This document shows, one piece after another, positions 1,933-61,464 of a DNA stretch of 64,000 nucleotides. Positions within the stretch are counted from its first letter, which is position 1, and each line of letters begins with the position of its first letter. Position numbers and translations under genes: made by a program. The notes beneath the pieces were generated by a model, which saw only the letters and a program-made list of their open reading frames with translations, was not told the origin of the DNA and did no database searches. The DNA comes from a virus (lineage: Duplodnaviria; Heunggongvirae; Uroviricota; Caudoviricetes). The stretch spans positions 1 through 64,000 of the IMG/VR virus record IMGVR_UViG_3300029828_000006; one strand, written 5' to 3'.

Positions 1933-2200
1933 GTTACAGGCTCGCGTAGAGATTCTTGAAAAAGAAAATGCGAGTCTAAAAGGAATGCTGGCGCGGGCGG
2001 AAAGGGAATTATCAGGCAAATTATTGCCAGAAGAGCTGCCACCAGCAGATATACCTGATCGAGTGTCCTGGTGGATGAAGTATTTCCGTGCACCGTGGGA
2101 GGCGTTTTGGTGCTACGACCATCGCAGATGGTGTGATGAGCTTGATAGCAGTTTCCCCTATTTTGCGGAAGGGAACTCTTGCCCTGAATGTAGGAGTTAA
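1916..2200 (+). CDS. small coiled-coil / Cys-rich protein (94 aa)
   Basis: ATG at 1916 with GAGG RBS; heptad-like N-terminus and C-terminal C..C...CPEC cluster. Confidence 0.35.
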   Translation: MPTKAELQARVEILEKENASLKGMLARAERELSGKLLPEELPPADIPDRVSWWMKYFRAPWEAFWCYDHRRWCDELDSSFPYFAEGNSCPECRS

Positions 2201-2430
2201 TGATGACCGGCGAGCTTTATTTTAAAATGTTTCTCGTTAGGAGTGCAGTCAAAATTTTTGGGCAATACAGGATCGAGAGGAATGCGATTAGGCATAGCCA
2301 ATTCCTTATTAACTGATTGGCAACGAGGTTACGCTGATCCGTTGGTGATGAATAGTAGCAAAGCGCACAAAATCATCTGCGGTGGTTGATGTACATAACG
2401 CGTTTGCACCAAAGGTGTCTCTTTAATGTA

Positions 2431-2450
2431 TACTGTATAAATGAACAGTA
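2431..2450. promoter_or_regulatory. LexA (SOS) box TACTGTATAAATGAACAGTA
   Basis: CTGT-N8-ACAG palindrome 20 bp upstream of the humD start. Confidence 0.55.
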
Positions 2451-2469
2451 TTATTGAGGTGAAAACGCT

Positions 2470-2859
2470 ATGGGCTTCCCTTCTCCTGCGGCGGATTATG
2501 TTGAAAGCCGAATTTCTCTTGATCAGCAGATAATTAGACATCCATCAGCAACCTACTTCATGCGGGCAGCTGATAGCCATCACCGTGAGGGAATATTGCA
2601 GGGTGCTTTGCTGGTGGTTGATTCTTCGCTTACTCCAGTTGATGGTTCGCTGCTTGTGTGCGCTATGGAGGGTGAATATCGCATAAAGAGATACAGGAAG
2701 TATCCGCGCCAGCACCTGGAGGATTTAAGCACCGGGAAGAAAGAGGCGTTACCAGTAGATGACGATGGTTACACGGGTAGTAATGCTGTTTTTGGTGTGA
2801 TCACTCATGTCATCAATGATGCCCGAAGTGGGGAATTTGATGATTGTCCGGTCATTTAA
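2470..2859 (+). CDS. humD: HumD, UmuD'-like translesion-synthesis accessory protein
   Basis: Translation aligns with UmuD core (GFPSPAADY, HPSATYF, VFGVITHVI); preceded by LexA box. Confidence 0.8.
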   Translation: MGFPSPAADYVESRISLDQQIIRHPSATYFMRAADSHHREGILQGALLVVDSSLTPVDGSLLVCAMEGEYRIKRYRKYPRQHLEDLSTGKKEALPVDDDGYTGSNAVFGVITHVINDARSGEFDDCPVI

Positions 2860-2931
2860 GCTGCAAAGTGCTGGTGCTTTATGCCTGTGAAGTTTATAAT
2901 TGTGTACACATAACGAGTACACGAGGTGTTT

Positions 2932-3153
2932 ATGCAATCCATTAACTTCCGTACCGCGCGCGGCAACCTTTCTGAAGTGCTCAACAATGTTGAAGCCGGG
3001 GAAGAGGTTGAAATCACCCGCAGAGGCCGTGAGTCAGCAGTAATTGTCAGCAAGGCTACTTTCGAAGCCTACAAAAAAGCGGCGCTGGATGCTGAATTTG
3101 CATCCCTGTTTGACACCCTGGACTCCACCAACAAGGAACTGGTTAACCGATAA
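2932..3153 (+). CDS. phd: Phd antitoxin
   Basis: 73 aa [34 protein letters not shown]... matches recalled P1 Phd; stop overlaps doc start (TAATG). Confidence 0.9.
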
Positions 3154-3533
3154 TGAGGCATATATCACCGGAAGAACTTATTGCGCTTCATGATGCGAAT
3201 ATAAACCGCTACGGCGGCCTGCCGGGAATGTCAGATCCGGGTAGGGCAGAGGCCATTATCGGGAGAGTTCAGGCCAGAGTTGCCTACGAAGAGATCACCG
3301 ACCTTTTCGAAGTCTCCGCCACCTACCTGGTGGCTACAGCGAGAGGGCATATATTCAATGATGCCAATAAGCGTACCGCGCTAAACAGTGCGCTGTTATT
3401 TCTACGCCGTAACGGGGTGCAGGTATTTGATTCACCTGAACTGGCAGACCTTACCGTAGGGGCTGCGACCGGAGAGATATCTGTATCTTCTGTCGCCGAC
3501 ACGTTACGTAGATTGTATGGTTCCGCGGAGTAG
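3153..3533 (+). CDS. doc: Doc toxin (Fic-fold kinase)
   Basis: 126 aa product matches recalled P1 Doc; coupled to phd. Confidence 0.9.
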
Positions 3534-3537
3534 ATTA

Positions 3538-3735
3538 ATGGCACGTAGATACAACAAATTGTCCCGTGAAGCGTTAAAGATGCTTCTTGATGGCGTGAGT
3601 CGCCGCGAGGTAAAGCAATACCTGATTGGTAAGCAAATTGGCGCCAGGACCGCTATTGCTGTGTTATGCCGTCAGGAAATGGTTGTGCTTAAACAGAGAA
3701 TGCTTGGTAGCAGACAAAGTGCTTCCAGTATTTGA
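3538..3735 (+). CDS. small basic protein (65 aa), possible DNA-binding
   Basis: ATG just after doc stop; followed by terminator at 3739-3769. Confidence 0.3.
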   Translation: MARRYNKLSREALKMLLDGVSRREVKQYLIGKQIGARTAIAVLCRQEMVVLKQRMLGSRQSASSI

Positions 3736-3738
3736 AAA

Positions 3739-3769
3739 GAAGCCCGCCATACCAAGCGGGCTTTTTGTT
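3739..3769. terminator. bidirectional rho-independent terminator
   Basis: AAGCCCGC-loop-GCGGGCTT stem with T-run; separates convergent doc cluster and 3768..4544. Confidence 0.6.
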
Positions 3770-4544
3770 ATTTCACCTCTTCTGCCGCTGTATCATTGGA
3801 CTGTTCTTCTTTGGCCCGTTCTGCAATCGCCGCACGGCATTTCGCCCTGGCTATAGCGATTGCTTCAGCTCGCACATCGTCTGGAATCGTTGACGTGATA
3901 TACATATCCAGTTCTTCGGCACGGAATACTGTTTGGTCCAGATATTCGCGTAGCATCCAGGTAAATTCGAAATCACACGCGATAATCTCTGCGCTACCTT
4001 CTGCACCATTTGGGAAATGAATAAATGCCTGTTTAGCCAAACCGATAACACGACATGCGGTTGCCAAAACAGCGACAACCAGGTTTACATTTTCACACGC
4101 TACGGGCTGATTAACGCCGGAGATTACTCCATTTAACTGTCGGTTATATGGAAGGTAGTTTGAGATGCGTTCTACGCGCCATGTGCCAGTCAGGCTGCCA
4201 TTTTTAAAGATAATTGGTGTAACGGATAGCCCAAGCTCGCGTATAAGTCGTTGCGCTATAGCAGGATCATTAAACAGGTCTAATGCTACACATTCGAAAG
4301 ACTGCGCAAGGGCAAACAGTTCTTCCAGAGAGTAGTCTTTGCCCCTGGCGGTGATGTAACGACGAACGCCGCTGTCCGCATCACTCCATATAGCTACGCC
4401 ATGCTCTTCATTCAGTTCTTCATTAAAGCCGAGATACGTCATGATAGTGCGTTCAATCGTGTCAAACGGCAGTGACATGTCGGCGTTAACATCCACCAGC
4501 AGACCATTACGCAAGCGGTATTGAATTGCTTTAGTATTTTCCAC
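3768..4544 (-). CDS. hypothetical protein (258 aa)
   Basis: Last gene of operon downstream of cre; no domain recognised. Confidence 0.5.
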   Translation of the reverse strand: MENTKAIQYRLRNGLLVDVNADMSLPFDTIERTIMTYLGFNEELNEEHGVAIWSDADSGVRRYITARGKDYSLEELFALAQSFECVALDLFNDPAIAQRLIRELGLSVTPIIFKNGSLTGTWRVERISNYLPYNRQLNGVISGVNQPVACENVNLVVAVLATACRVIGLAKQAFIHFPNGAEGSAEIIACDFEFTWMLREYLDQTVFRAEELDMYITSTIPDDVRAEAIAIARAKCRAAIAERAKEEQSNDTAAEEVK

Positions 4545-4550
4545 GTTAAA

Positions 4551-5213
4551 TCACTCCACTACAAACCAGTCACATGCCAGTAAGTCGCCTACAGAAGGAA
4601 CCCACGGAACAACTACACCTTGTGCATTTTTTAAGGCGAAATAAGCACCATACGGAACGAGGTCGCCGGGGAAATATCCCTTAATGGCTTCCATTCGTGC
4701 CGGGTACTGTCCTTCAGGAACCAGCCAGCAGAATTGGTTTTCACCGTTCCACCCGCGTCGAGCAACTTTCTTTCCTTCCTTCAGCCACATCAGCGCGTCA
4801 GAAAAGTCGGCTGCTTCAAGGTCGATTTCTTCTTGCTGGGTGGTGATGCCACCAGCAGAAATAGTTACGCTTCCGGAAATATTAATGTTCACGCCGTTGT
4901 CATCCGTAATGATGACCGTGGTCCCATTTTCGGAGGTGTCGTTAACCCGGCTATAGCATTTTTCAAATGCTTTCTCTGGCACATAGACCGGATAGCCATT
5001 TTCAGCAGTGACGAGATATCCTCCTATTTGCGGTCGGAATCTTTCCAAGAACACACCATCAACACGAAGCGTCATTCCTTTTGGCTCAACGACTTCGATA
5101 CTGCCCAAAATGGGCGCATCAGTTTCGCCGACAATAACAATATCTTTGATTTTCGATGCCCGAATGATGCTGTGGCTTTTGTATTTGGGGAACACCTGAA
5201 AAGTGCTAGCCAT
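4551..5213 (-). CDS. two-domain protein with C-terminal DUF2829 (Tad2-like) domain
   Basis: C-terminal FSDALMWLKEGKKVARRGWNG...VVPWVPSVGDLLACDWFVVE matches recalled DUF2829 signature. Confidence 0.5.
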   Translation of the reverse strand: MASTFQVFPKYKSHSIIRASKIKDIVIVGETDAPILGSIEVVEPKGMTLRVDGVFLERFRPQIGGYLVTAENGYPVYVPEKAFEKCYSRVNDTSENGTTVIITDDNGVNINISGSVTISAGGITTQQEEIDLEAADFSDALMWLKEGKKVARRGWNGENQFCWLVPEGQYPARMEAIKGYFPGDLVPYGAYFALKNAQGVVVPWVPSVGDLLACDWFVVE

Positions 5214-6592: not shown

Positions 6593-6608
6593 TGTGTTAG
6601 AAATTTAA
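6593..6608 (+). promoter_or_regulatory. conserved 16-bp motif TGTGTTAGAAATTTAA (candidate operator)
   Basis: Family consensus T(A/G)TGTTAGAAA(A/T)(C/T)TAA; at cre 3' end upstream of 6192..6536. Confidence 0.4.
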
Positions 6609-6609
6609 T

Positions 6610-7638
6610 TTACGAATCCATCAGGCGGCTATTAGCCCCCACAGACACGCCGCCACGGCGAAGATACCGCATAAGTGTTTCCGGTTTCTTCCAGGTTCCT
6701 TCCTGCATGATCTCCACCATAGACACCTGCTTTTCAGCCATATCAATAGCGGCCCCGACGCGTGCACTATGCCCGGTCCACGTCCGGTATCTTCCTTTGT
6801 TTGGCGTAGCATCTCTTTTATTCAGCAACACCCAGGCGTCGCTGAATATTTTCTCCATTGCAGGTGCAGTAAGGGGCGTTATCGTGATCCTGGCCTTATT
6901 GCTACGGTGTATCGGCGGGAACAGCACTGCGTCAGGATGTTCGCGAAGCCCGGAAACATCCAGCCAGTCATTCAGCACAGCGGTAGTGCGACGGGAAAGC
7001 ACCTTATCAAGCCCGGCGGCGGTCGTTATTGTCTTCGTGTGTGAAATATGTAGCGTGACAGTGTCACCTGTTTGGTCCAGATCTCCTACACGAATACGCG
7101 AGATTTCCGACATACGCATCAGCGTATTGTATGCAACAAAGAGAAAAGCCCGGTTGCGCAGGTCCACCAGCCGTTCTGACCTGGACAACAGGACGTCGAG
7201 CAGTTTCAGATCGTCCCACCGCAGCGGTATAGCCTGGCCTGTTCGTTCGCCTTTTTCCGTTGCCGCTTCACGCCGGATGCGCCGCATAGCCAGAGAAACA
7301 CTTTTATCATCCGAAAGTGGCGGAAGGCCACAATGCGAAAGCAGCATGTTAAGCATGGCGTAGTGCTTATCAATGGTGGTCGAAGCCAGATCAGCATCAT
7401 GCAGCTGAAGAAAATACTCGCGGGCCATCTCTGGTGAGATCGGGAACCAGGCGAGCTGGCGAGCGTGACACCATCTCGCCCAGGAGTGAAACACTAACCG
7501 GAGATCGCGCAAAGTATTCGGCGCATAAGCCCCCTGGTCATTCATGAACCGCATAAAGTTTTCTGCGGCCTCCTGGTACTCTTTGCCAATGTTGCGCAGA
7601 AAACCACCGGAGCTGCCAGAGATAATTAATTCACTCAT
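6610..7638 (-). CDS. cre: Cre-like tyrosine site-specific recombinase
   Basis: 342 aa; aligns with Cre along its length (RRIRRE, AYNTLMRMSEISRIRVGD, TGHSARVGAAIDMA, EIMQEGTW...Y); diverged from P1 Cre. Confidence 0.85.
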   Translation of the reverse strand: MSELIISGSSGGFLRNIGKEYQEAAENFMRFMNDQGAYAPNTLRDLRLVFHSWARWCHARQLAWFPISPEMAREYFLQLHDADLASTTIDKHYAMLNMLLSHCGLPPLSDDKSVSLAMRRIRREAATEKGERTGQAIPLRWDDLKLLDVLLSRSERLVDLRNRAFLFVAYNTLMRMSEISRIRVGDLDQTGDTVTLHISHTKTITTAAGLDKVLSRRTTAVLNDWLDVSGLREHPDAVLFPPIHRSNKARITITPLTAPAMEKIFSDAWVLLNKRDATPNKGRYRTWTGHSARVGAAIDMAEKQVSMVEIMQEGTWKKPETLMRYLRRGGVSVGANSRLMDS

Positions 7639-7789
7639 GAAACTATTTCACCTCTATATACAGATGACGCTACGCGAAAAATATAAAAATGACAGGGTAG
7701 CTATAAGTTAATTTTCAAAATACAACCCTTTGATTCGATGCACGTATTTTCAGTGATGTCAACACTGTTCATCTACACATGATTATAGC

Positions 7790-7823
7790 CTAACTTTAAA
7801 TAATGCCAATTATTTAAAGTTAT
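7790..7823. other. lox-like site (13-bp inverted arms, 8-bp spacer)
   Basis: CTAACTTTAAATA-ATGCCAAT-TATTTAAAGTTAT; arms share ATAACTT with loxP; 150 bp upstream of cre start. Confidence 0.6.
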
Positions 7824-8002
7824 AAAATGCCGATTTTTTTTAATCCATCATAGATTGATGATGACCAGTAACACGTTGCCTTCATGGTCTTTAATTTGCG
7901 AAGTGTGGTTTCTACGGTTGGTTTTCTAAAATTGATGACAAAAAATCACAGTTCGATCCTTTACTCACTCTGTTATTCGACATAAATTTGTCATAGTAAT
8001 TT

Positions 8003-8018
8003 TATGTTAGAAAACTAA
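8003..8018 (+). promoter_or_regulatory. conserved motif TATGTTAGAAAACTAA
   Basis: 14 nt upstream of the c1-position ORF start. Confidence 0.45.
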
Positions 8019-8032
8019 ATCGAGTAGGAATA

Positions 8033-9070
8033 ATGAGTAAGAAGTCGATCGAGAAAGAGTACAAACGGTTCCTGCAAACCGCTGAACGGTGGAAAGAGCT
8101 GGTGGTCGCAAACTCTGTTTTCCATGATACCAGTTATGCTGGCGAGGAATTCCGCCATGTTGCATTAACGCATGACCAAAACATATTAGAAGAAGCTGAA
8201 AAATGTCTTGCTGAATGGAAAGCCTTCGTTGACATGTGCCGCGATGCCGACGGCAAAGCGTCGAACATTGTTGAGTCTGTATATTCTCCGATCCCATTCA
8301 TCATTGAGGACACCAATCAAAGCACGCATGTCGTTGTGCAAAGCGCTACAACAACACGTACATTTACACGTGAACAATTGCTAAAAAAATACGACAAAAT
8401 CATAAAGAAAAGCCTTAAAAATAGGGTTTTTTCTCAAATCGTAGGTGATCTTGAAGAAGAACAGCGCTTCTTTGAAGCTGAGCCTGAAGGCGAGATCTAC
8501 CGGGCGCGTAAAGAGGCATATACAGATGTTGTGCTGACAACAAACATCGAAGGCAGCAATGCCCTTTCTCGCTTTAGAGTTGGCGCACATGGTGCATTGG
8601 TTTTCGCAAGACTACCGAAGACAACGATCCCCGTTGTCAATAATGTTGGTGAACGCCGGAGCATTACAATTTATTCTGGCGTCGAATCGGTACCTTGCAG
8701 CCTTCTCGGCGATTTTAACTTATATCGTGTTCGTGACCTGGAAAAACACCAGCCAAGCTATGTTGCGAAGTCGTACATCTTAAGGAACATCGATATTCGC
8801 AATGAAAGCCTTAAGCAGAAATCCGCTAAGATGCTGGAGGATGCCGATCCGGCTATTCGCCATATCATTGAGCGTAAGATACGTACATCACGTGAAGCAA
8901 TGGCAAGGCTGGATAAAATGGATCTGGAATTGTTAGACGTAATGATGGCCTCTGGAGACGACCTGACCGGCATTAAACTGAATGAAGCTCGTAAAAAATA
9001 CGGCAAAGCAATCGAAGAACGTTACGGATACACATTCCCCCAAACGCAGTACGCCGCGAAGCTCTGGTAA
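8033..9070 (+). CDS. hypothetical protein (345 aa) at the c1 position; candidate immunity repressor
   Basis: Convergent with pacB between pacB and lox as c1 is in P1; operator-like motif 14 nt upstream; function positional only. Confidence 0.35.
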   Translation: MSKKSIEKEYKRFLQTAERWKELVVANSVFHDTSYAGEEFRHVALTHDQNILEEAEKCLAEWKAFVDMCRDADGKASNIVESVYSPIPFIIEDTNQSTHVVVQSATTTRTFTREQLLKKYDKIIKKSLKNRVFSQIVGDLEEEQRFFEAEPEGEIYRARKEAYTDVVLTTNIEGSNALSRFRVGAHGALVFARLPKTTIPVVNNVGERRSITIYSGVESVPCSLLGDFNLYRVRDLEKHQPSYVAKSYILRNIDIRNESLKQKSAKMLEDADPAIRHIIERKIRTSREAMARLDKMDLELLDVMMASGDDLTGIKLNEARKKYGKAIEERYGYTFPQTQYAAKLW

Positions 9071-9077: not shown

Positions 9078-9103
9078 CGGCCCCGCATCGCGGGGCTTTA
9101 TAT
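9078..9103. terminator. rho-independent terminator
   Basis: GCCCCGC-ATC-GCGGGGC stem plus T-run between convergent genes. Confidence 0.6.
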
Positions 9104-10606
9104 ATCCAGATCCGGCATTTCGATATCCGCCAGAACCTGATCTCGGAAAGTTGCCATTTCGGCACCAATATCTTCATTAGCAGGCACATAGTCCACCAGC
9201 ATAGTGAAGCAGTAGGTATCCCATCGGTCAGGCGATTTGATGTTTAGCTTTTGCCGCATGTGCTCTTTGCGCATCATCGCCATTTTCCCTTCTTCATTCA
9301 GTAAAAAGGGGATTTTTGACGCTTGCTCTGCCGTTTTAGGGTCACTGTCTATCCGCATACGCCCTGACTTTATGGCATCACGCGCCATAATGTTTGCGTA
9401 GGCACGCTGATTAACAAATCGCTCCCTGTCTTTGTTCGCAAACATGGGTTTTCCCCACCGAATACGTACCGGGTTCGCACCACGACGCACCAACTGCGCA
9501 CACGTATCAGAACCAAAACCATCAGCATCAACCGCGATTGTTATATTCGGGTATTTTTCCGGCGTACATTCGTTATATATGAAGTCAGCAAAGGCCAATG
9601 GGTCCATAGTGCCAGGCATCTCCATTACCTTAAAGTTAACAACGCGCCGCTTATCCCTGTGACCTGATACCTTGCAGATGTTGAGGACCGACTTATCTCG
9701 CCCATTACCAACGTCAGCCGTTGCCACCCATCCCCAGTTTTTCTCCAACAACACCTTGCGGCGAGCAGCGCGATCGCATTCATCACGACCAAGCAAATAG
9801 CCGTTAATTTCTCGTGGGAACTGACCAAGCACCTTGACCATGTACTCAATAGAATCGCGCCCGCCATATTCCAGAAGCTTCTCCTTGATGAATTGTGGTG
9901 TGACGAACGGTGATTCTTCCGAGTTAAGAACAATTGCTGTCCAGATCCCTTTCGGGTTGTCTGGGGTTTTTGCTCGAGAATGGTGCGAATCGTAGAAATA
10001 ACCACTTGGCCTTGTTGGCTGGGATAGCATCAACATCCGGTTATCTTCTTCAGTAAGAGCACCGGTCATTACGCCGATCGCCTTATCAGATATACCAGAT
10101 GCTTCATCCAGAATTAGAAGCAAATGTGCCGCGTGTTCCCCCGCCAGCGCTTCTTCGTTGCCGAGTCGATAACCTTTGCAGAGAACTTCCCAAATCCCCT
10201 TACGGGAGCGCTCATAAAACATGGTGTCAGAGAGGACAAAATAGGTCTGCAACCACCCATGACGCTTAACTGCATTCGCCCAATACTGTTTAACGTATTT
10301 GAATACGCCTGTTTTTACCTGGCCTATCTTGTTAGCAACAATGATGACACGGGCATCGGGGAACAGGATCATAAAAATCAACAGCAACATCGCGGTAAGG
10401 GACGACTTCCCCGTTCCGTGTCCGGACGTGACGGTCGTCCTACTCCCCGTTTCCTGCACTGACTGAATGATCTGCTGCTGCTGGTGGGAGGGGAACATCC
10501 CAAAAATATCGACTACAGCCTGGGTAAAGTTGTAGCGGTATTTGATTACCATATCGCGCCAGCGTGGATCGCTGGTGACGCATTTAATCTTGCGCCCGCC
10601 AGCCAT
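9098..10606 (-). CDS. pacB: PacB, terminase large subunit
   Basis: 502 aa with Walker A-like TSGHGTGKS and LILDEA; start overlaps pacA stop. Confidence 0.8.
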   Translation of the reverse strand: MAGGRKIKCVTSDPRWRDMVIKYRYNFTQAVVDIFGMFPSHQQQQIIQSVQETGSRTTVTSGHGTGKSSLTAMLLLIFMILFPDARVIIVANKIGQVKTGVFKYVKQYWANAVKRHGWLQTYFVLSDTMFYERSRKGIWEVLCKGYRLGNEEALAGEHAAHLLLILDEASGISDKAIGVMTGALTEEDNRMLMLSQPTRPSGYFYDSHHSRAKTPDNPKGIWTAIVLNSEESPFVTPQFIKEKLLEYGGRDSIEYMVKVLGQFPREINGYLLGRDECDRAARRKVLLEKNWGWVATADVGNGRDKSVLNICKVSGHRDKRRVVNFKVMEMPGTMDPLAFADFIYNECTPEKYPNITIAVDADGFGSDTCAQLVRRGANPVRIRWGKPMFANKDRERFVNQRAYANIMARDAIKSGRMRIDSDPKTAEQASKIPFLLNEEGKMAMMRKEHMRQKLNIKSPDRWDTYCFTMLVDYVPANEDIGAEMATFRDQVLADIEMPDLDI

Positions 10607-11970
10607 TAATCATCCTCCGGCGGTTCTATCGCGATATCATCATCTCCGGCGTCATACCCTGCATCAGATGCATCATAATCACCGTAAATTTCAGCCGTTG
10701 CCGAAGGGTCAATATCCAGCTCTTCGTCGTTGGCCTCGAATTCTCCAGCTTTACGCTCGCCATTGCGGTCGTAATCTCCGCACCCCAATTCTTCAACAAT
10801 GGTTGCCACATCCGCCCGGCGCTCTGCCAGCCATTGCGGATGGTTAGCCTGAAGCGTTGCAAACTCCCTTGCCTCTTTGTCCAGCTGTTCATCATCAACA
10901 TCATTGACGTCAGAAACAGGTGGTTCGAGAAGAGTGATAGCTTTCGCCGCGCGCGCCGCGAGGATAGCCGGGACGCTGACACCCTGGCGCTCGATGTATT
11001 CAGCAACACCGATATCATCCAGTTCCTCGCGCTCACGCATACGTATAGCGGCGGCGATAACTCTGGCTGCGCGTGCGTCAGCGCCAATGCGATATTCAAT
11101 CTCTTTGCCACGCTGTTCGGCCTGTAGGCGTGCTAATTCGAGTTTTTCTCTGGCCTCAGCCTCTTTGAATGCTTGCTGGCGAGCGCTCTGACGAAGCTTT
11201 TCATCCCCCTGTCGCAGCTTTTGTTCGGACTGATATATAGCTGCCAACCTACTGATAAAATCATTCATGTAGTAGGCCGCGTCACTGATTAGACCGAGAA
11301 GGCGCTGCCCAGGGTGCATTCCTTCTGGCTCTTTATCGCCCAAGGCGTCTATTTCCGCCTGTAGACGTTCGGCCTCCTGATCAACAATGCTTTGATACTG
11401 AAGTGCGCGCTCTTGCGCCATTTGAATTGCTAACCGCAGGTGTTCTTCTGCGCCGTTCTTCATCATATCGCGAGCCACATTCGTAGTTGGCAATGTGGCA
11501 CGCTGCACAGCACCGTCAGGGATCATTGCAGAAGATCCCTCAATTTTTGGGGCGTTTTTATCTTCTTCGGGGATCATTTTCGCCATTTTTTCGCGCAATG
11601 ATCTCCTGACGGATTCTTTTATCTCATTGTTATTATTTGAATTATTTTCATGATCCGAAGTTTTCTTTCTCGGCATACTTCGGAAAGAACCTGCGCCCTG
11701 CGAATTGTCAATTTCTGTAAATTTTGTTTTTTCTGCACCCTCTTCCAGCTTTTTTGTTGCTCTTCCCGCCCGTTTTTTTTCAGGTGATTTGGTGCTTTTT
11801 TTTGTTGTCTTTACCTGCGACCGCACCTCATTTTTTTTCATATTGAGATGCTTTCTGGCTGTATTGAAGCTAAGGCCATGCTCCTCACAGTATTCCTTTA
11901 CAGTGATCCCTTTTTCTTCACGCAACGCTATAAAGCGGGCGCGGTGCTCCTCCCAATTAACCAGACTCAT
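10606..11970 (-). CDS. pacA: PacA, terminase small subunit / pac recognition
   Basis: 454 aa, N-terminal HTH-like, acidic C-terminus; contains GATC cluster. Confidence 0.75.
   Translation of the reverse strand: MSLVNWEEHRARFIALREEKGITVKEYCEEHGLSFNTARKHLNMKKNEVRSQVKTTKKSTKSPEKKRAGRATKKLEEGAEKTKFTEIDNSQGAGSFRSMPRKKTSDHENNSNNNNEIKESVRRSLREKMAKMIPEEDKNAPKIEGSSAMIPDGAVQRATLPTTNVARDMMKNGAEEHLRLAIQMAQERALQYQSIVDQEAERLQAEIDALGDKEPEGMHPGQRLLGLISDAAYYMNDFISRLAAIYQSEQKLRQGDEKLRQSARQQAFKEAEAREKLELARLQAEQRGKEIEYRIGADARAARVIAAAIRMREREELDDIGVAEYIERQGVSVPAILAARAAKAITLLEPPVSDVNDVDDEQLDKEAREFATLQANHPQWLAERRADVATIVEELGCGDYDRNGERKAGEFEANDEELDIDPSATAEIYGDYDASDAGYDAGDDDIAIEPPEDD
11510..11656. other. candidate pac site (cluster of TGATCN/GATC elements)
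   Basis: Five GATC within 147 bp inside pacA 5' part, in two groups, resembling P1 pac hexamer organisation. Confidence 0.35.
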
Positions 11971-12359
11971 AAAGCAACACCACGCTTTTTAACGGCGGCA
12001 TTCCACAGCTTATTCGCCATGTCCACCAGCTCTCGTTGCTCTTTTCGCGCCTGTTCGACTGATTTCCTGCTACAGTTTTTAACCAGTAAACTGCCATATT
12101 CAGGGGTTCGCCCACGCACCTTGAACTGATATCCGTTCAGGCCATGCAACCAGTATTTTCGTGGGTAAACACGATCATCAAGCTCACAGATTGCCCTGCT
12201 TGAACGAACAAAATGACGAATGATGTTAGTTACACTTACTCGTGAAACATGGAGATGAGGGTATTTTTCTTTGGCGAGAGTGGTAATTTCAGTGACTGTC
12301 AGATAGCAGTCAGCCCTGATCATGATATCCGCAATTTCTGCGCTGCTGATTTGTTCCAT
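11967..12359 (-). CDS. Lpa-like late promoter activator (positional)
   Basis: 130 aa ORF overlapping pacA start, at the position lpa holds in P1; operator-like motif upstream. Confidence 0.35.
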   Translation of the reverse strand: MEQISSAEIADIMIRADCYLTVTEITTLAKEKYPHLHVSRVSVTNIIRHFVRSSRAICELDDRVYPRKYWLHGLNGYQFKVRGRTPEYGSLLVKNCSRKSVEQARKEQRELVDMANKLWNAAVKKRGVAL

Positions 12360-12435: not shown

Positions 12436-12451
12436 TGTATTAGAAAATTAA
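12436..12451 (+). promoter_or_regulatory. motif variant TGTATTAGAAAATTAA
   Basis: In the lpa upstream region; weaker consensus match. Confidence 0.3.
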
Positions 12452-13889: not shown

Positions 13890-13965
13890 TGGTGGCCCCT
13901 ACCGGACTTGAACCGGTGACCGTGCGATTATGAGTCGCCAGCTCTAACCACTGAGCTAAGGGGCC
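13890..13965 (-). tRNA. tRNA-Ile2 (anticodon CAU, lysidine type)
   Basis: 76 nt with CCA; near-identical to recalled E. coli ileX; anticodon loop CTCATAA. Confidence 0.9.
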
Positions 13966-13974
13966 AATTAGTTT

Positions 13975-14088
13975 TTATTTTCGACGCCTGAGATTCTTCG
14001 CTACTTGTTCTACTCCGTATACGATCACAAGCAGAAATAGCAAAGACCATCCAGGGTTCTTATCAATATACGTCCAAAAATCCATCAT
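13975..14088 (-). CDS. small membrane peptide (37 aa), TciC-position
   Basis: ATGATGG start overlaps upstream stop; one hydrophobic helix; below track cut-off. Confidence 0.3.
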   Translation of the reverse strand: MMDFWTYIDKNPGWSLLFLLVIVYGVEQVAKNLRRRK

Positions 14089-14249
14089 GAGTTCCTGAAC
14101 GCAGCTTTAATAATCGGCAATAGCAATACCACAGCTACTGAAACCAGTGCCCCATCAGCCAACACCGACATCACTTTGCTGGTGAAATCCACCAGCACGG
14201 ACAAAACGAGAAAACCAATGGCGCACGCAATACGCGCCTTGCCAATCAT
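14085..14249 (-). CDS. small membrane protein (54 aa), TciB-position
   Basis: Start overlaps tciA stop; two hydrophobic segments. Confidence 0.3.
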   Translation of the reverse strand: MIGKARIACAIGFLVLSVLVDFTSKVMSVLADGALVSVAVVLLLPIIKAAFRNS

Positions 14250-14683
14250 TACAGATAATCTTCCACACGAAGGCCCAAACGACGGCCTACTTCTTCCAGT
14301 ACTTTGTGTTCTGCTGGCTCGATTTCACCGTCCGCTTCTGCAATCGTCAGCATGTTAACGAATACTTCTTCCGCTTCTTTTGGATCATTTTTGATATCTT
14401 CAATTTCGCGAAGGATATTCATGCGACCAACACGGAAACCAGCTTCCAGTTGCTCAGTAAAACGGGTGATTGTTGCGGTAATTTCGTTGCCAAAATGACT
14501 TAAGCGAGGATTAGAGCGGACAAGCTGATCAAGTTTCGCTGTTTCTTCCTTTTCGATTTCACCATCTGCGGCAGACACCAACAAACAGCCACCGATAATG
14601 GCCTCCATCAGATCGCGATTCTCAACCCTTTTCAGCTCTACTTTTGCTGAAGCGACTTTCTTACCGAAAAATTTACCGAACAT
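14249..14683 (-). CDS. tciA: TerB-like protein (TciA-like)
   Basis: 144 aa with paired acidic helical repeats typical of the TerB fold. Confidence 0.6.
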   Translation of the reverse strand: MFGKFFGKKVASAKVELKRVENRDLMEAIIGGCLLVSAADGEIEKEETAKLDQLVRSNPRLSHFGNEITATITRFTEQLEAGFRVGRMNILREIEDIKNDPKEAEEVFVNMLTIAEADGEIEPAEHKVLEEVGRRLGLRVEDYL

Positions 14684-14950
14684 TGGTTATCCCTCAATAA
14701 ACATGACGTATTTATTAGGTTGCGGTGCCTGGTGCCTCCAGGTGACGTTAACCAGTTAACAATTAACGCCGGGATGTTTGACTTAACCACTAAGGAGGAT
14801 TGTTTTAACTGTTCCGCGTGCGCATAGCCGCATTCACCGCAATGGTAAGAGCACTTGGCTGGCTGGGCGGCGATGACGCCTGTACGCATTTGGTGATCCG
14901 GTTCTGCTTCCGGCATTCGCTTAATTAGCCAAATACTCTTAACGTTGCAC

Positions 14951-15037
14951 TGGCGGAGAGTAATGGAATCGAACCATCATCGCTTGCGCAATGGGACGGT
15001 TTTCAAGACCGTTTGAGCACCATGCTCCCTACTCTCC
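14951..15037 (-). tRNA. tRNA-Ser (anticodon UGA)
   Basis: 87 nt type II tRNA; acceptor GGAGAGT/ACTCTCC, anticodon loop CTTGAAA, long variable arm, CCA. Confidence 0.8.
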
Positions 15038-15139
15038 AGTGATTGTGATGGTCGGTGCTGAACTCCGACACAGGGTTGTAGCAAGCCCCGCAAAGCGCGC
15101 ACTACTGTAGTTGCGGCACATCAGCCTGTGCATTCACCA

Positions 15140-15229
15140 CAATGTTGAGAACACTGGTTGTCACGCTGCAACGCAACATTTATTCGTAGATTGGGATATG
15201 ACCCCGTTACGCCAGTGTTCTCAACGTTG
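15140..15229. repeat. long-stem hairpin (18-bp stem, 54-nt loop)
   Basis: CAATGTTGAGAACACTGG ... CCAGTGTTCTCAACGTTG, one wobble; preceded by conserved leader. Confidence 0.5.
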
Positions 15230-15370
15230 TAGTGCCGGTTACGGTTCCGGCCAGGCCTCTTCCTCAACGGGGTGTTCTCCATACGGACTACCGTTTATTG
15301 GTCGTTCCTGCGGTTTATGTTGTGAAGCCAGATGCTTATCTTCTGGTTGCTTCAAAGAGCTGCACTTCAT

Positions 15371-15438
15371 CACAACGGTAAGAGCACTCGATGCATTTAA
15401 GCCAAGCCCCATAAGGGAGAATGCCCTTACCTGTTGTG
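15371..15438. repeat. imperfect long-stem hairpin, same family
   Basis: CACAACGGTAAG ... CTTACCTGTTGTG; shares leader and GCTTGGC with next unit. Confidence 0.45.
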
Positions 15439-15566
15439 TTGTGATGACCGGTGCTGATCTCCGGCTTGCGGTTATTTCAGACTCTCACGGGCGTTTATTT
15501 GCCCCGCCGAACAGCTCTTTTCCGCAATAGCTGCAATGTCTTTCGCGCATCAGCCTGCGCATTCAT

Positions 15567-16966: not shown

Positions 16967-16982
16967 ATACTTTTCTAACACT
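16967..16982 (-). promoter_or_regulatory. motif variant (rc GTGTTAGAAAAGTATA)
   Basis: In non-coding region; partial match. Confidence 0.25.
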
Positions 16983-17122: not shown

Positions 17123-17138
17123 TTAGATTTCTAACACA
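17123..17138 (-). promoter_or_regulatory. conserved motif (rc TGTGTTAGAAATCTAA)
   Basis: Immediately beyond the 3' end of 17139..18362. Confidence 0.4.
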
Positions 17139-18362: not shown

Positions 18363-18372
18363 TTTGTTAAAT

Positions 18373-18388
18373 TAGTTTTCTAACATAT
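18373..18388 (-). promoter_or_regulatory. conserved motif (rc TATGTTAGAAAACTAA)
   Basis: 26 nt upstream of the 17139..18362 start codon. Confidence 0.45.
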
Positions 18389-18971: not shown

Positions 18972-19466
18972 TTAATCAAGACAAACATACTCCGTGATAG
19001 CTTTTATGGCTTCAGCGGCACTGCGCGCCTCAAAGCAGTAGTAACCGGCTTCAGTGAGGCGGGTCATCCAGACGAGTTGTTCGGGAGTCAGGCGATTTCT
19101 CCCATGTTTCATCTCAATGCGCATTCCGTGGTATCCCCCACAAGCAAGGTCTATAGAAAGATCGGGATATCCCTTCTTTTGGCCCTCTGCCACCATTTTT
19201 ATTGCCGTCCTTATGCCTCGCAGGCCACCGTTTGGAGTGGCGTGAGTATGCTCATACACATAACGCATATTGCGATACAACCAGTCCAGGACGCGAACCT
19301 GCTCGTAATGCTCATGGTTCCTTTTGATTAGATCTGGGTTTTTCTCCAGTTCTCTAAGAGCTGCGGCATGTGGGGATGTTTCAGAATATTCACTGCGACG
19401 CCTTCTCTTTCGCGCTATTTTTCTAACACACCCATTGATGGTAAATATGCGAAATAATAACAACAA
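18972..19466 (-). CDS. VRR-NUC domain nuclease (true start probably internal)
   Basis: KGYPDLSIDLACGGYHGMRIEMK matches PD-(D/E)xK VRR-NUC core; conserved motif lies inside the first 20 codons. Confidence 0.5.
   Translation of the reverse strand: MLLLFRIFTINGCVRKIARKRRRRSEYSETSPHAAALRELEKNPDLIKRNHEHYEQVRVLDWLYRNMRYVYEHTHATPNGGLRGIRTAIKMVAEGQKKGYPDLSIDLACGGYHGMRIEMKHGRNRLTPEQLVWMTRLTEAGYYCFEARSAAEAIKAITEYVCLD
19415..19430 (-). promoter_or_regulatory. conserved motif (rc TGTGTTAGAAAAATA)
   Basis: Inside the annotated N-terminus of the VRR-NUC ORF, implying a later true start. Confidence 0.35.
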
Positions 19467-19602: not shown

Positions 19603-19863
19603 TTAAAGGGTTATTTTATCCTGTTCGGATAATTCTTTGATTGTCTTGTCGATTGCGATCAACCAACCTTCATAGGTTAAATCATCAACAAGTTCTACCA
19701 ACTTATCATCGGTGTGAGGAAAGTATATCCAGCTCCAGTTCGCAGGGTTTTCTGCTTTTCGCAGCGTAAAAACCTTCTTGTAACGGTGGAACTCAAGGAC
19801 ATACCCCTTCGATATGGAATATTCCTTTAGGTCTTCGACCGTAAACCTACGATTCTTTCGCAT
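19603..19863 (-). CDS. hypothetical protein (86 aa)
   Basis: No domain recognised. Confidence 0.4.
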   Translation of the reverse strand: MRKNRRFTVEDLKEYSISKGYVLEFHRYKKVFTLRKAENPANWSWIYFPHTDDKLVELVDDLTYEGWLIAIDKTIKELSEQDKITL

Positions 19864-27842: not shown

Positions 27843-28043
27843 TCAAGTCACGATCCAATCATTACCGACTATATCAGCCGTCGATAAATCAACTTCCCGG
27901 ATCTGGAGTCCATTAATACAAAACCATCCGGTAGTAGAGTAATTATCAGGCCAGGCCCATACACCAACACTCCATACTTTACGGCGGCACACTTCAGCCT
28001 GTCCTTCCCTGATTTTTTTTACCGCCTGCATGATGTCCATCAC
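27843..28043 (-). CDS. stand-alone DUF2829 (Tad2-like) protein (66 aa)
   Basis: AVKKIREGQAEVCRRKVW ... ADIVGNDWIV matches DUF2829 pattern. Confidence 0.45.
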   Translation of the reverse strand: MMDIMQAVKKIREGQAEVCRRKVWSVGVWAWPDNYSTTGWFCINGLQIREVDLSTADIVGNDWIVT

Positions 28044-28747
28044 TCACCTCCCCAACCGATCACCTGGAATTGCCCCATTTTGGGGTGATACCAGCGTTTT
28101 CCTCGGTGTTCAGCCTCCGACATCATCCGGTTAAAAGCATTCATGAAGGGAGATAAGGCCACGATTGAACGACGCGACAATACCCCCTCTGGAGTTAAAA
28201 ACTCATGCGTATCTGTGGGGATCCGGTAAGCGTTGACCAGGTTGCGGCATTTGGCTTCGGTCAGGCCGCATTTTGCCGCCAGCTGGCGGTAGCCAATGTA
28301 ACCTTCCGGCATGTTGCCCTTCTTGATTTGCTCGACGGTTTCTACCACTTGGCTAACCTTTGACTCAACAACATGAAGCCGCTTTTGCTGCTGAACTGCA
28401 TTTGCAGCCATTGCGGCGATCATCTCTATTTCGGTCAACGGCTGGCGTGCTTGTTCTTCCAGTTCGCGCCAGCGGTCCACCAGCCGGGCGGTGAATTCGG
28501 GAGAGAGCTGCGCAACGACAATAATGCTGTCTCGTTTGCCTTGCTCGCCTTCGAAGACGTAAGCCTCGACACTACGGCGTAGTCCTAAGTTATTGATTTT
28601 TTCGAAAACCTGCAATGCAGGAAGTTGAATAACTCCAGATTTAGCCAGGCGCTCTATTGATATTTTTACGTTATCTGGACGACTTCCCACCAGCTCCGCG
28701 ATCTCAATGCTGGTCATTGATGGCTTTTCAAGAATGCAGATATCCAT
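28040..28747 (-). CDS. Rha-family phage regulatory protein / antirepressor-like
   Basis: N-terminal MTSIEIAELVGSRPDNVKISIERL typical of Rha/antirepressor DNA-binding domain. Confidence 0.55.
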   Translation of the reverse strand: MDICILEKPSMTSIEIAELVGSRPDNVKISIERLAKSGVIQLPALQVFEKINNLGLRRSVEAYVFEGEQGKRDSIIVVAQLSPEFTARLVDRWRELEEQARQPLTEIEMIAAMAANAVQQQKRLHVVESKVSQVVETVEQIKKGNMPEGYIGYRQLAAKCGLTEAKCRNLVNAYRIPTDTHEFLTPEGVLSRRSIVALSPFMNAFNRMMSEAEHRGKRWYHPKMGQFQVIGWGGE

Positions 28748-28971
28748 CAGTGTGCCTCCGCAATTCCGGGATTGGTAATATTGCGATACCAGGGATTAGT
28801 GTTTGGTTGTGGGGAAGTAGAGAAACGACCAGTAAGAACACCATGCTGATCAGGGATCAGAGAACGGGCTTCTTTTTCGGTTGCGGCAATTGCGAAGTGA
28901 TCGCAGTGTTTTTGCAGGGAGTGGAAACGCCAGATGAATTCTGGACGTGAGCAAGGATTGGCATTAACCAT
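28747..28971 (-). CDS. small protein (74 aa), Icd-position
   Basis: Overlaps start of Rha-like gene as icd overlaps ant in P1; no similarity asserted. Confidence 0.3.
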   Translation of the reverse strand: MVNANPCSRPEFIWRFHSLQKHCDHFAIAATEKEARSLIPDQHGVLTGRFSTSPQPNTNPWYRNITNPGIAEAH

Positions 28972-28974
28972 AGT

Positions 28975-29316
28975 TACGGCCTCACTAACAGGTTTAACAA
29001 CCTGCTACCCGCTGTCAAACAGGTGGCAGGACGTGACAGGGTTGACAGACTGGCGTTAGTGAAACCAGCAGGCCGAAGCCTCCCCATCACGCCCCACCAT
29101 AATTCGGGCGTAACGCGGTTTACGGACACAAAAATACCGCAATATCGGAAATCTGCGGTTGTCCGCACTAACATTCAGGCTGTCAAACCTGGTCGCAGAA
29201 TTTGCTACGACGGCATGAATATAAGCCTGAAAACATGGAAGATCAACTAAAAATTTCAGCAATGGATGACTTCAGTCGATGATGCAGATCATACATTCCG
29301 ATTTAGAAACAGCAAA
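28975..29316 (-). promoter_or_regulatory. structured leader with complementary 8-10 nt elements (candidate antisense-RNA control region)
   Basis: GCTGTCAAAC at 29011 and 29179 and its complement GTTGACAG at 29041, downstream of operator-like motif. Confidence 0.25.
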
Positions 29317-29332
29317 TTAATTTTCTAACACA
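29317..29332 (-). promoter_or_regulatory. conserved motif (rc TGTGTTAGAAAATTAA)
   Basis: Head of the leader preceding the small-ORF/Rha-like operon. Confidence 0.45.
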
Positions 29333-29384: not shown

Positions 29385-30347
29385 TCATCCCCTAAAGCCC
29401 GCCGGGATTGACCAATCCTCACGGTCAAATTCAGACCGATAGCCACGCTGTTTCATCAGGTCAAAGGCTTCACCAATGGTTGCACACCCCAGGGAGCCAG
29501 AATAATCCATTGAGAAATCCAGGGCACTGGATTGTTTAGGCTTATTCACTGCGGTAGCGGCACTACGTATCCATGCAAATTTTTTTGCCAGCTTTTCAGC
29601 GGTACGATACAGAGCCTGCCGTTTTGCGTGCCCCTCGTCTGAACGACGCTTTGCAGCTCTCGCTTTTGCCGCCGCCAGGCAGTGGTTGGTATGTTCTTCC
29701 CTGATTACTGGTTTTTTATCCAGCACCCCATTATCCGCTTGAGAACTATCTGCTGGTGAAGCCTTTGGCTGAACCGCGCATGATCTTTCTCTTCTTTTTG
29801 CTATAGAGTGACTCTTATTTTCTATTGGCTGTTCATTTTGAACATGGGGGGACTTGTTCAATTTGAACAGGGGGTTCCCAGTTTCAAAAAAATAACGAAC
29901 CTTTGAAATCAACTGCTTAACCAGTTTTGTGGCGTTGGCAAATTTGATGCCCTGCTTACCCCCTATCTCCATTGCTACATGAATGAAGTGGAGAAATTGT
30001 GTCGTAAACCGATATACGTTACACACCTGGGCATTGTTATTCGCTACCTGATGTTGCTTAACAAGCATTCCGCACTTCGTCGCTTCAGCAAATGCCCGGC
30101 GCACAGTAGAAATACTGCGTCCTGTAATCTCGGACATATCAGCATATGAGCGACGGATCATGTATTCATCGGTAGACCCTGCCAGGTTGGCGAACTCGGC
30201 AATAATGGCGCTATGTGAAGGGGAAAGAAGACCGCTATGACGAGCAAAAAAACTCAACTGATGACCTTTGATTTTTTTGTGGTATTCAGTGTTGTTTTTA
30301 TACTCAGAAGTGTTGAAAGTTACTGAAACTGAATTTAAAATACTCAC
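29385..30347 (-). CDS. RepL-like HTH replication protein (tentative)
   Basis: HTH-like MSEITGRSISTVRRAFAEATKCGML; internal tandem palindromes; own operator-like motif. Confidence 0.35.
   Translation of the reverse strand: MSILNSVSVTFNTSEYKNNTEYHKKIKGHQLSFFARHSGLLSPSHSAIIAEFANLAGSTDEYMIRRSYADMSEITGRSISTVRRAFAEATKCGMLVKQHQVANNNAQVCNVYRFTTQFLHFIHVAMEIGGKQGIKFANATKLVKQLISKVRYFFETGNPLFKLNKSPHVQNEQPIENKSHSIAKRRERSCAVQPKASPADSSQADNGVLDKKPVIREEHTNHCLAAAKARAAKRRSDEGHAKRQALYRTAEKLAKKFAWIRSAATAVNKPKQSSALDFSMDYSGSLGCATIGEAFDLMKQRGYRSEFDREDWSIPAGFRG
29830..29874. repeat. tandem palindromes TGTTCAWTTTGAACA-GGGGG (candidate internal origin)
   Basis: Two 25-bp units at 29830 and 29855 inside the RepL-like ORF, plus nearby TTTCAAA/TTTGAAA inverted repeat. 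Confidence 0.4.
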
Positions 30348-30518: not shown

Positions 30519-30534
30519 TATGTTAGAAATTTAA
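30519..30534 (+). promoter_or_regulatory. conserved motif TATGTTAGAAATTTAA next to AGTGTAT-N4-ATACACT palindrome
   Basis: About 170 bp upstream of RepL-like gene start. Confidence 0.45.
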
Positions 30535-61448: not shown

Positions 61449-61464
61449 TTAGTTTTCTAACACA
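61449..61464 (-). promoter_or_regulatory. conserved motif (rc TGTGTTAGAAAACTAA)
   Basis: Between divergent major-head candidate (start 61319) and 61478 gene. Confidence 0.45.

What the first reader, a model, noticed from the sequence alone, without database searches (positions are those of the whole stretch)
8003..9070. Unrecognised 345-aa ORF at the c1 position, with the motif 14 nt before its start
Gene order lpa-pacA-pacB, convergent gene, lox, cre matches P1 where the convergent gene is c1. The product did not match what I recall of P1 C1. Its length is close to Coi plus C1 (about 69 + 283 aa) and an internal Met sits at residue 67; this may be coincidence.
Basis: inference. Interest (0 to 1): 0.5.

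Follow-up and report, generated by a model that had tools for sequence, protein, structure and literature searches.

The report
Phage D6 C1 prophage repressor gene
The 345-residue gene is the already annotated c1 prophage repressor of the P1-like plasmid phage D6, a distant relative of the P1 C1 repressor with extra residues at its tail end, so the finding is ordinary.

Summary
The ORF is real: window 8033..9070 (+), 345 aa. The 16-nt motif TATGTTAGAAAACTAA lies at 8003-8018, 14 nt before the ATG.

It is not unrecognised. It is 99.7% identical to c1 of phage D6, which GenBank annotates as "phage repressor protein, similar to C1 of P1" (AY753669, MF356679). It is 100% identical to an NCBI E. 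coli "phage repressor protein". The window is a D6-like E. coli plasmid prophage.

Homology to P1 C1 is weak (21% identity) but significant:
- BLASTP E 1e-8.
- hhalign probability 95.6%.
- Both proteins fall in phrog_1678, and the D6-type proteins carry Pfam PF27008 (Phage_P7_repressor_C1).

The Coi+C1 fusion idea is wrong. The alignment with P1 C1 is colinear from residue 7. Nothing resembles Coi. Met68 is not conserved. The extra length is a conserved helical C-terminal extension (about residues 266-345).

The motif behaves as this repressor's operator:
- There are about 11 strong sites in 64 kb, against 0.6 expected by chance.
- Sites occupy the positions of the P1 operators Oc1, Olpa, Oc4 and OrepL. 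In D6 itself they also occupy the Oref and Omat positions.
- The two sites before c1 are conserved in relatives whose C1 is only 43-52% identical.

No Coi or Lxc homologue was found. The verdict is already known and of low interest. The only open point is what the C-terminal extension does.

The parts
8033..9070 (+). c1 gene, encoding a D6-type C1 prophage repressor of 345 aa (stop codon included)
   Evidence: ORF. It is 99.7% identical to D6 c1 and 100% identical to the NCBI 'phage repressor protein' P0001. It matches phrog_1678 at E 4.9e-170.
8051..8827 (+). Core C1 domain (residues 7-265), homologous to P1 C1 residues 8-260
   Evidence: BLASTP E 1e-8 at 21% identity. hhalign probability 95.6%. 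NF041318 matches residues 7-240 to profile positions 8-245. Short family members align only to profile positions of about 5-245.
8828..9067 (+). C-terminal extension specific to D6-type C1 (residues 266-345), predicted helical, function unknown
   Evidence: It is conserved in all long homologues, with invariant K282, A289, L293, M296, D297, S307-G308-D309, A319 and R320. P1 C1 covers phrog_1678 positions 1-280 only, whereas this ORF covers 2-347. The AF2 model shows helices at pLDDT above 90. There is no similarity to Lxc, and nothing significant in Pfam or PDB.
8003..8018 (+). Proximal operator-like motif TATGTTAGAAAACTAA, 14 nt before the c1 ATG
   Evidence: The same core sits at -25 to -31 before c1 in relatives L008, L006 and L007.
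7918..7933 (-). Distal, weaker operator-like motif in inverted orientation (AATTTTAGAAAACCAA), about 100-115 nt before the c1 ATG
   Evidence: An inverted TTAGAAA core lies at -110 to -122 in all four lineages, although this core occurs only 15 times in the 64-kb window.
9079..9097 (.). GC-rich hairpin terminator shared by the convergent c1 and pacB genes
   Evidence: 8-bp stem with 7 GC pairs, followed by TTTATATAT.
7791..7822 (.). rox recombination site (the D6 counterpart of P1 lox)
   Evidence: Read from the sequence and annotated in the D6 records.
6610..7638 (-). dre tyrosine recombinase gene (Cre homologue)
9098..10606 (-). pacB terminase gene, convergent with c1
10606..11970 (-). pacA terminase gene
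11967..12359 (-). lpa late-promoter activator gene
   Evidence: Relatives carry PF25716 BPP1_LPA.
12436..12451 (+). Operator-like motif 77 nt upstream of the lpa ATG, at the position of P1 Olpa
   Evidence: P1 Olpa ends 71 nt before the lpa ATG. Both have the TCTAAT core in the same orientation relative to lpa. The site is conserved in relatives.
29317..29332 (-). Operator-like motif ahead of the immI module (a1b1 target, c4 RNA, icd, antirepressor), at the position of P1 Oc4
   Evidence: Rfam places C4 at 29019-29104 and c4-a1b1 at 29172-29224. The distance from operator to a1b1 is 93 nt here and 99 nt in P1.
29019..29104 (-). c4 antisense RNA gene, which controls antirepressor synthesis in P1
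   Evidence: Rfam RF01695, 68.8 bits against a gathering score of 45.
28040..28971 (-). icd (28747..28971) and putative antirepressor (28040..28747) genes
   Evidence: ORFs. D6 annotation as orf19 and orf18.
30519..30534 (+). Operator-like motif 172 nt upstream of repL (29385..30347, - strand), the counterpart of P1 OrepL
   Evidence: P1 OrepL is annotated.
6593..6608 (+). Operator-like motif between dre and the orf117-dut operon, with a weak overlapping inverted copy at about 6605-6620
16967..16982 (-). Operator-like motif downstream of the pmgS homologue, upstream of the minus-strand tRNA cluster
17123..17138 (-). Operator-like motif abutting the stop codon of the pmgS homologue
18372..18387 (-). 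Operator-like motif (exact copy of the c1 one) upstream of the pmgS homologue start, with a gap of 9 nt
19415..19430 (-). Operator-like motif at the 5' end of the pmgM homologue
61449..61464 (-). Operator-like motif in the divergent region between the major capsid gene and the orf52 homologue

Best explanation
The ORF is the c1 gene of a D6-like plasmid prophage. It is the orthologue, in the D6 lineage, of the C1 master repressor of phages P1 and P7.

Most likely mechanism:
- The protein binds an asymmetric operator of about 16 nt, consensus T(G/A)TGTTAGAAA(A/T)(C/T)TAA. Copies are scattered over the genome next to or overlapping the promoters of lytic functions.
- The controlled functions include lpa (late-gene activator), repL (lytic replication), the immI c4-icd-antirepressor module, and ref (in D6). 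Binding keeps the plasmid prophage quiescent and makes the cell immune to the same phage.
- Two inverted sites in front of its own gene give autoregulation, possibly through a DNA loop as in P1.
- An antirepressor held in check by the c4 antisense RNA is the likely route to derepression.
- Unlike P1, this lineage has no detectable Coi inactivator or Lxc corepressor. Its C1 instead carries a conserved helical C-terminal extension of about 80 residues, of unknown role.

Shown here:
- identity with D6 c1 and homology to P1 C1
- the position of the extra residues
- the number, placement and conservation of the motif sites
- the c4 RNA

Inferred:
- DNA binding by this protein and repression
- autoregulation and immunity
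- any role of the extension
For: Identity:
- The ORF is 99.7% identical to D6 c1, annotated as a phage repressor.
- An identical protein is named 'phage repressor protein' at NCBI.

Homology to the experimentally characterised P1 C1:
- BLASTP 21% identity over 268 residues, E 1e-8, colinear from residue 7.
- hhalign probability 95.6%, E 1.1e-8.
- Both proteins match phrog_1678, at E 4.9e-170 and 2.6e-140.
- NCBIfam phage_rep_C1 at E 6e-6.
- Pfam PF27008 Phage_P7_repressor_C1 on all homologues.

Synteny: the order recombinase, c1, pacB, pacA, lpa is kept in relatives down to 43% identity.

Operator:
- 10 sites against 0.6 expected, and 11 strong PWM sites, nearly all intergenic.
- Sites sit at the positions of the P1 operators annotated in the P1 record: Oc1, Olpa, Oc4 and OrepL.
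- In D6 itself, sites also sit at Oref and at Omat, the latter overlapping the ref stop codon.
- The core TCTAA(C/T)A is shared with the P1 operator ATTGCTCTAATAAATTT (consensus in PMC8546580).
- The two sites upstream of c1 are conserved in four lineages.

The P1 mechanism used as the model is taken from PMC8546580.
Against: - No binding or immunity experiment could be read or run.
- The match to the NCBIfam equivalog model is far below its cut-off (25.9 against 500 bits). The protein is therefore a distant family member, not a functional equivalog by that standard.
- No canonical sigma-70 promoter was found by the simple scan just upstream of c1, so how the proximal site controls c1 is unclear.
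- The structure models are of moderate confidence (pLDDT 80 and 74). They match no known DNA-binding fold.
- The corepressor Lxc and the inactivator Coi of the P1 circuit are not detectable. The circuit therefore differs from P1 in unknown ways.
Confidence: 0.9

Rival explanations
1. The ORF is a fusion of a Coi-like inactivator (N-terminal 67 residues or so) with C1. An internal start at the Met near residue 67 would give a separate C1.
For: Only arithmetic supports this: 69 + 283 = 352, close to 345 residues. There is also a Met at residue 68.
Against: - P1 C1 aligns from its residue 8 to ORF residue 7 and onward.
- P1 C1 covers phrog_1678 positions 1-280 and the ORF covers 2-347, so the surplus is C-terminal.
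- BLASTP against Coi gives nothing (E 29). Coi belongs to a different PHROG, phrog_2079.
- Residue 68 is M, L or V among homologues.
- There is no Shine-Dalgarno sequence before it.
Confidence: 0.01
2. The ORF is a C1 homologue that no longer acts as the master repressor. The motif would then be bound by a different protein, or be a promoter element and not an operator.
For: - Identity to P1 C1 is only 21% and the score is below the equivalog cut-off.
- No experiment was available.
- No recognisable DNA-binding fold was found.
Against: - The motif sits at six positions that are C1 operators in P1, including the autoregulatory position.
- The gene, its position and its upstream sites are conserved across lineages.
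- The D6 annotation lists no other candidate repressor.
- The immI antirepressor and c4 module, which in P1 acts on C1, is retained.
Confidence: 0.05
3. The C-terminal extension is a built-in modulator that replaces the separate Lxc corepressor or Coi of P1. It could do this by mediating self-association and looping between operators, or by serving as the docking site for the antirepressor.
For: - The extension is conserved and confidently helical.
- It is present only in the long subfamily.
- Its size, about 80 residues, is close to that of Lxc (82 aa).
- Lxc and Coi homologues are absent. PMC6799933 also reports that Lxc was not detected.
- The paired inverted sites upstream of c1 are about 85 bp apart.
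Against: - There is no sequence similarity between the extension and Lxc or Coi.
- An 86-aa ORF sits exactly where lxc sits in P1, after ulx. It could be a non-homologous Lxc analogue.
- There are no functional data.
Confidence: 0.15

Closest known systems
C1 repressor of phage D6 (GenBank AAV84948 in AY753669; ASR76322 in MF356679)
   Same: The length is the same (345 aa) and identity is 99.7%. The neighbours are the same: rox and dre on one side, pacB, pacA and lpa on the other. The surrounding DNA is 98.5% identical to D6.
   Different: There is one amino-acid difference. The window comes from a D6-like E. coli plasmid and not from D6 itself. The c1 region is identical to plasmid CP088384.1, and the tRNA region has an indel relative to D6.
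C1 repressor of phages P1 and P7 (283 aa; NCBIfam NF041318, Pfam PF27008, phrog_1678)
   Same: - The core domain of about 250 residues is homologous and colinear.
- The genomic position in immC is the same, next to pacB and the recombination site.
- Both have an asymmetric operator of about 16-17 nt in many copies.
- Operators lie at the same places: c1, lpa, c4, repL, ref and mat.
- The operator core TCTAA is shared.
- Both have the immI c4/icd/antirepressor module.
   Different: - Identity is only 21%, and the score is far below the equivalog cut-off.
- The operator sequence differs: TGTGTTAGAAAACTAA against ATTGCTCTAATAAATTT.
- This protein has a C-terminal extension of about 80 residues.
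- The c1-to-recombination-site spacer is about 210 bp, against about 700 bp in P1. It holds no coi, imcA or imcB.
- There is no lxc homologue.
P1 Coi (C1 inactivator, 69 aa) and P1 Lxc (corepressor, 82 aa)
   Same: Only sizes coincide. The surplus of this ORF over P1 C1 is 62 residues, and the extension is about 80.
   Different: There is no sequence similarity to either. The two proteins belong to different PHROG families, 2079 and 2160, against 1678 for C1.
Lambda CI / LexA-type phage repressors (HTH plus S24 peptidase)
   Same: The role is the same: prophage maintenance repressor.
   Different: No HTH or S24 domain is detected. The operator is asymmetric and not palindromic. Sites are dispersed over the genome and do not form one switch region.

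Membership tests
P1/P7 C1 repressor family (Pfam PF27008, phrog_1678) | Significant sequence homology to P1 C1 over the core domain | tested here: met
   BLASTP E 1e-8. hhalign probability 95.6%. Both proteins are in phrog_1678. PF27008 is precomputed on the identical protein and on all homologues. The local Pfam copy lacks this model, so one search was empty.
P1/P7 C1 repressor family (Pfam PF27008, phrog_1678) | Gene located in immC, between the terminase gene pacB (convergent) and the site-specific recombination site and recombinase | tested here: met
   The arrangement is conserved in relatives.
P1/P7 C1 repressor family (Pfam PF27008, phrog_1678) | Many dispersed asymmetric operators of about 17 bp at the promoters of c1, lpa, repL, c4 and ref | tested here: met
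   Motif count against chance. Positions correspond to the P1 operators Oc1, Olpa, Oc4, OrepL, Oref and Omat. This shows that the sites are present, not that they are bound.
P1/P7 C1 repressor family (Pfam PF27008, phrog_1678) | Protein binds the operators and represses; confers superinfection immunity | not testable with these tools
   Needs EMSA or footprinting and immunity assays. The two D6 papers (PMC534624, PMC5800970) are not held in the library.
NCBIfam NF041318 phage_rep_C1 (equivalog of P1 C1) | Score at or above the curated cut-off of 500 bits | tested here: not met
   25.9 bits at E 6.3e-6, against 607.5 bits for P1 C1. The ORF is a distant family member and not a P1-type equivalog, which is consistent with a different operator specificity.
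P1-type tripartite immunity (immC, immI, immT) | immI module: c4 antisense RNA, icd and antirepressor, preceded by a C1 operator | tested here: met
   Rfam C4 and c4-a1b1. icd and antirepressor ORFs. Motif at 29317-29332.
P1-type tripartite immunity (immC, immI, immT) | Coi inactivator encoded upstream of c1 | tested here: not met
   No tblastn hit in the window or in D6 51-91 kb. Only 210 bp separate rox from c1, with no conserved small ORF.
P1-type tripartite immunity (immC, immI, immT) | Lxc corepressor (immT) | tested here: not met
   No hit. The 86-aa ORF at the lxc position after ulx shows no similarity. PMC6799933 also reports that Lxc was not detected in a D6-like plasmid.
   C1 homology starts at residue 7. 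There is no Coi similarity. Met68 is not conserved.
Lambda CI / LexA-like repressors | HTH DNA-binding domain and S24 autocleavage domain | tested here: not met
   No Pfam family at E up to 1. No PDB sequence match.

The most novel reading that the evidence does not exclude
Probability: 0.15. Interest if true: 0.4.

Novelty: already known. Interest (0 to 1): 0.12.

Why it matters
It matters little for discovery. The gene has been annotated as the D6 C1 repressor since 2004, and about 140 sequenced enterobacterial plasmids carry it.

It has some practical use:
- The operator consensus and site map would let annotators recognise the C1 regulon of D6-like phage-plasmids, which are common in E. 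coli and Salmonella.
- Comparing a Coi- and Lxc-less circuit with P1 could show which parts of the P1 immunity network are dispensable.

Tried and rejected
- Coi+C1 fusion: rejected.
- C1+Lxc fusion: no similarity between the extension and Lxc.
- D6 orf13 homologue (19603..19863) as an Lxc homologue: it has the same position and size, but BLASTP finds nothing and the PHROGs differ.
- Local Pfam-A scan: empty, because the copy lacks PF27008.
- PDB sequence searches with the full protein and with the extension: nothing significant.
- Simple sigma-70 scan: no promoter directly upstream of c1, so the promoter-operator geometry at c1 stays unresolved.
- Small ORFs between rox and c1 as Coi analogues: none is conserved in the distant relatives.
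- Literature: the two primary D6 papers and the P1 genome paper are not held. A text search for the motif sequence found no phage paper. I cannot say whether the D6 operator consensus has been published.

Full report
**Observation**

The window contains an ORF of 345 codons at 8033..9070 on the + strand. The finding's start coordinate, 8003, is the first base of a 16-nt motif, TATGTTAGAAAACTAA (8003-8018). This leaves 14 nt before the ATG.

- lpa at 11967..12359 (-)
- pacA at 10606..11970 (-)
- pacB at 9098..10606 (-)
- the convergent ORF
- a GC-rich hairpin terminator at 9079-9097 between the ORF and pacB
- a lox-like palindrome at 7791-7822
- a cre-like recombinase gene at 6610..7638 (-)

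The only internal Met in the first 260 residues is residue 68, not 67.

**Identity**

A tblastn search of the phage collection finds the ORF at 99.7% identity in Escherichia phage D6. Record AY753669 annotates it as 'c1, phage repressor protein, similar to the C1 repressor of phage P1'. The complete genome MF356679 annotates it as 'prophage repressor, similar to P1 gene C1'. The lox and cre elements are the rox site and dre gene of D6. AY753669 is the record of Sauer & McDermott 2004, a reference confirmed.

The surrounding DNA is 98.5% identical to D6. The c1 region is 100% identical to E. coli plasmid CP088384.1. It is present in 140 PLSDB plasmids, mostly Escherichia with some Salmonella and Shigella. 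An identical protein is in NCBI as 'phage repressor protein [Escherichia coli]'. The window is therefore a D6-like plasmid prophage, and the ORF is not unrecognised.

**Is it really a C1 homologue?**

Yes, although a distant one.
- BLASTP against P1 C1 (taken from NC_005856) gives 21% identity over 268 residues, E 1e-8. ORF residues 7-265 align with P1 C1 residues 8-260.
- A profile of nine D6-type sequences (A1) aligned to P1 C1 with hhalign gives probability 95.6% and E 1.1e-8, over ORF residues 9-240 and P1 residues 10-245.
- Both proteins match the same PHROG, phrog_1678. The ORF scores E 4.9e-170 over profile positions 2-347. P1 C1 scores E 2.6e-140 over positions 1-280.
- NCBIfam NF041318 'phage_rep_C1' matches at E 6e-6, but at 25.9 bits against a 500-bit equivalog cut-off.
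- The protein database carries Pfam PF27008 'Phage_P7_repressor_C1' on all D6-type homologues. The local Pfam copy lacks that model, which explains the empty scan.

**The Coi+C1 idea**

It fails.
- All alignments are colinear from the N-terminus, so residues 1-67 are the N-terminal part of C1.
- Coi shows no similarity (E 29) and belongs to another PHROG.
- Residue 68 varies as M, L or V among homologues.
- No ribosome-binding site precedes it.

The surplus of 62 residues is a C-terminal extension, roughly residues 266-345.
- It is conserved among all long homologues, with invariant K282, A289, L293, M296, D297, S307-G308-D309, A319 and R320.
- It is predicted as confident helices.
- An exhaustive profile search of 1.84 billion representatives found only 84 family clusters. 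Long forms (about 345-380 aa) align end to end. Short forms (about 250-290 aa, the P1 type) align to profile positions of about 5-245 only.

The region between rox and c1 is about 210 bp, against about 700 bp in P1, where it holds coi, imcB and imcA. It contains no small ORF conserved in distant relatives.

**The motif as operator**

The motif has 10 matches with at most 3 mismatches, against 0.6 expected. A weight matrix gives 11 strong sites in the window, with consensus T(G/A)TGTTAGAAA(A/T)(C/T)TAA. Almost all are intergenic.

Their positions reproduce those of experimentally defined C1 operators annotated in the P1 record:

| Site here | Context | P1 counterpart |
|---|---|---|
| 8003-8018, and inverted 7918-7933 | before c1 | Oc1 |
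| 12436-12451 | 77 nt before the lpa ATG | Olpa, 71 nt before it, same orientation of the TCTAAT core |
| 29317-29332 | 93 nt before the a1b1 target, followed by the c4 RNA and icd-antirepressor | Oc4, 99 nt before a1 |
| 30519-30534 | before repL | OrepL |

In the part of D6 outside the window, one site lies 65 nt before ref and another overlaps the ref stop codon. This matches P1 Oref and Omat exactly.

The D6-type motif read on the other strand is TTAGTTTTCTAACACA. The P1 consensus is ATTGCTCTAATAAATTT (PMC8546580). The two share a TCTAA core.

I fetched relatives whose C1 is 89%, 52% and 43% identical (L008, L006, L007). All keep the order recombinase, c1, pacB, pacA, lpa. All keep two TTAGAAA cores before c1 at the same places, -25 to -31 forward and -110 to -122 inverted. 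This heptamer occurs only 15 times in the whole 64-kb window.

**Mechanism**

By homology and site placement, the protein is the master repressor of the plasmid prophage. In P1, C1 binds 22 dispersed asymmetric 17-bp operators and represses repL and lpa, among others. Coi inactivates it one to one. Lxc strengthens binding in a ternary complex. Ant1/Ant2, held down by c4 RNA, act as antirepressor (PMC8546580).

Here the C1 core, the operator map and the immI module are conserved. Coi and Lxc are not detectable. A paper on a D6-like Salmonella plasmid likewise reports that Lxc was not detected (PMC6799933).

DNA binding, repression, autoregulation and immunity are inferred and not shown. The c1 promoter could not be placed.

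**What led nowhere**

**Verdict**

This is the known c1 repressor gene of phage D6 in a D6-like E. coli plasmid.

The residual interest lies in the uncharacterised C-terminal extension and in the apparently Coi- and Lxc-less immunity circuit.

Noticed in passing
window 19603..19863 (-): An 86-aa ORF (D6 orf13, phrog_6844) lies directly after the ulx homologue. This is exactly where the 82-aa corepressor gene lxc lies in P1 (darB-ulx-lxc). It has no detectable sequence similarity to Lxc, so it may be a non-homologous positional analogue.
   Followed up: partly
window 29019-29104 (-) and 29172-29224 (-): Rfam finds a C4 antisense RNA (68.8 bits) and its a1b1 target element (54.4 bits) upstream of icd and the antirepressor. 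The layout and spacing match P1 immI. D6 also has a second icd and antirepressor pair outside the window (D6 74022-75178).
   Followed up: partly
window 13890-15903 (-): ARAGORN and Rfam place five tRNA genes (Met, Ser-tga, Thr, Tyr, Arg-tct) on the minus strand. The D6 record annotates three tRNAs (Ser, Thr, Asn) on the plus strand. Window 15067-15825 has no megablast match to D6, so the tRNA set differs or the D6 annotation has the wrong strand.
   Followed up: no
window 7782-7809 (-): A near-consensus sigma-70 promoter (TTGGCA, 16 nt, TATAAT; 11 of 12 matches) lies largely inside the rox site (7791-7822) and points toward dre. Recombinase binding at rox could therefore affect dre transcription.
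   Followed up: no
window 17123-17138 (-) and 16967-16982 (-); D6 75978-75993: Some operator-like sites abut or overlap stop codons: the pmgS homologue stop at 17139, and the D6 ref stop. P1 Omat overlaps the ref stop in the same way. The pair after pmgS faces the minus-strand tRNA and tciAB cluster and may control it.
   Followed up: partly
window 6593-6620: A strong operator-like site (6593-6608, +) overlaps a weak inverted copy (TGGATTCGTAAATTAA, about 6605-6620, -). This resembles the bivalent overlapping operators of P1. It lies in the 73-bp gap between dre and the orf117-orf116-dut operon.
   Followed up: no
window 61449-61464 (-): A strong operator-like site lies 13 nt before the ATG of the orf52 homologue (61478, +), in the divergent region shared with the major capsid gene. 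The spacing is nearly the same as at c1, but the orientation is opposite.
   Followed up: no
window 1798-4930: The left end of the window (humD, phd/doc region) is closer to P1, RCS47 and SJ46 phages (95-97% identity) than to D6 over parts of it (88-93%). This suggests mosaic exchange between D6-like and P1-like plasmid prophages.
   Followed up: no
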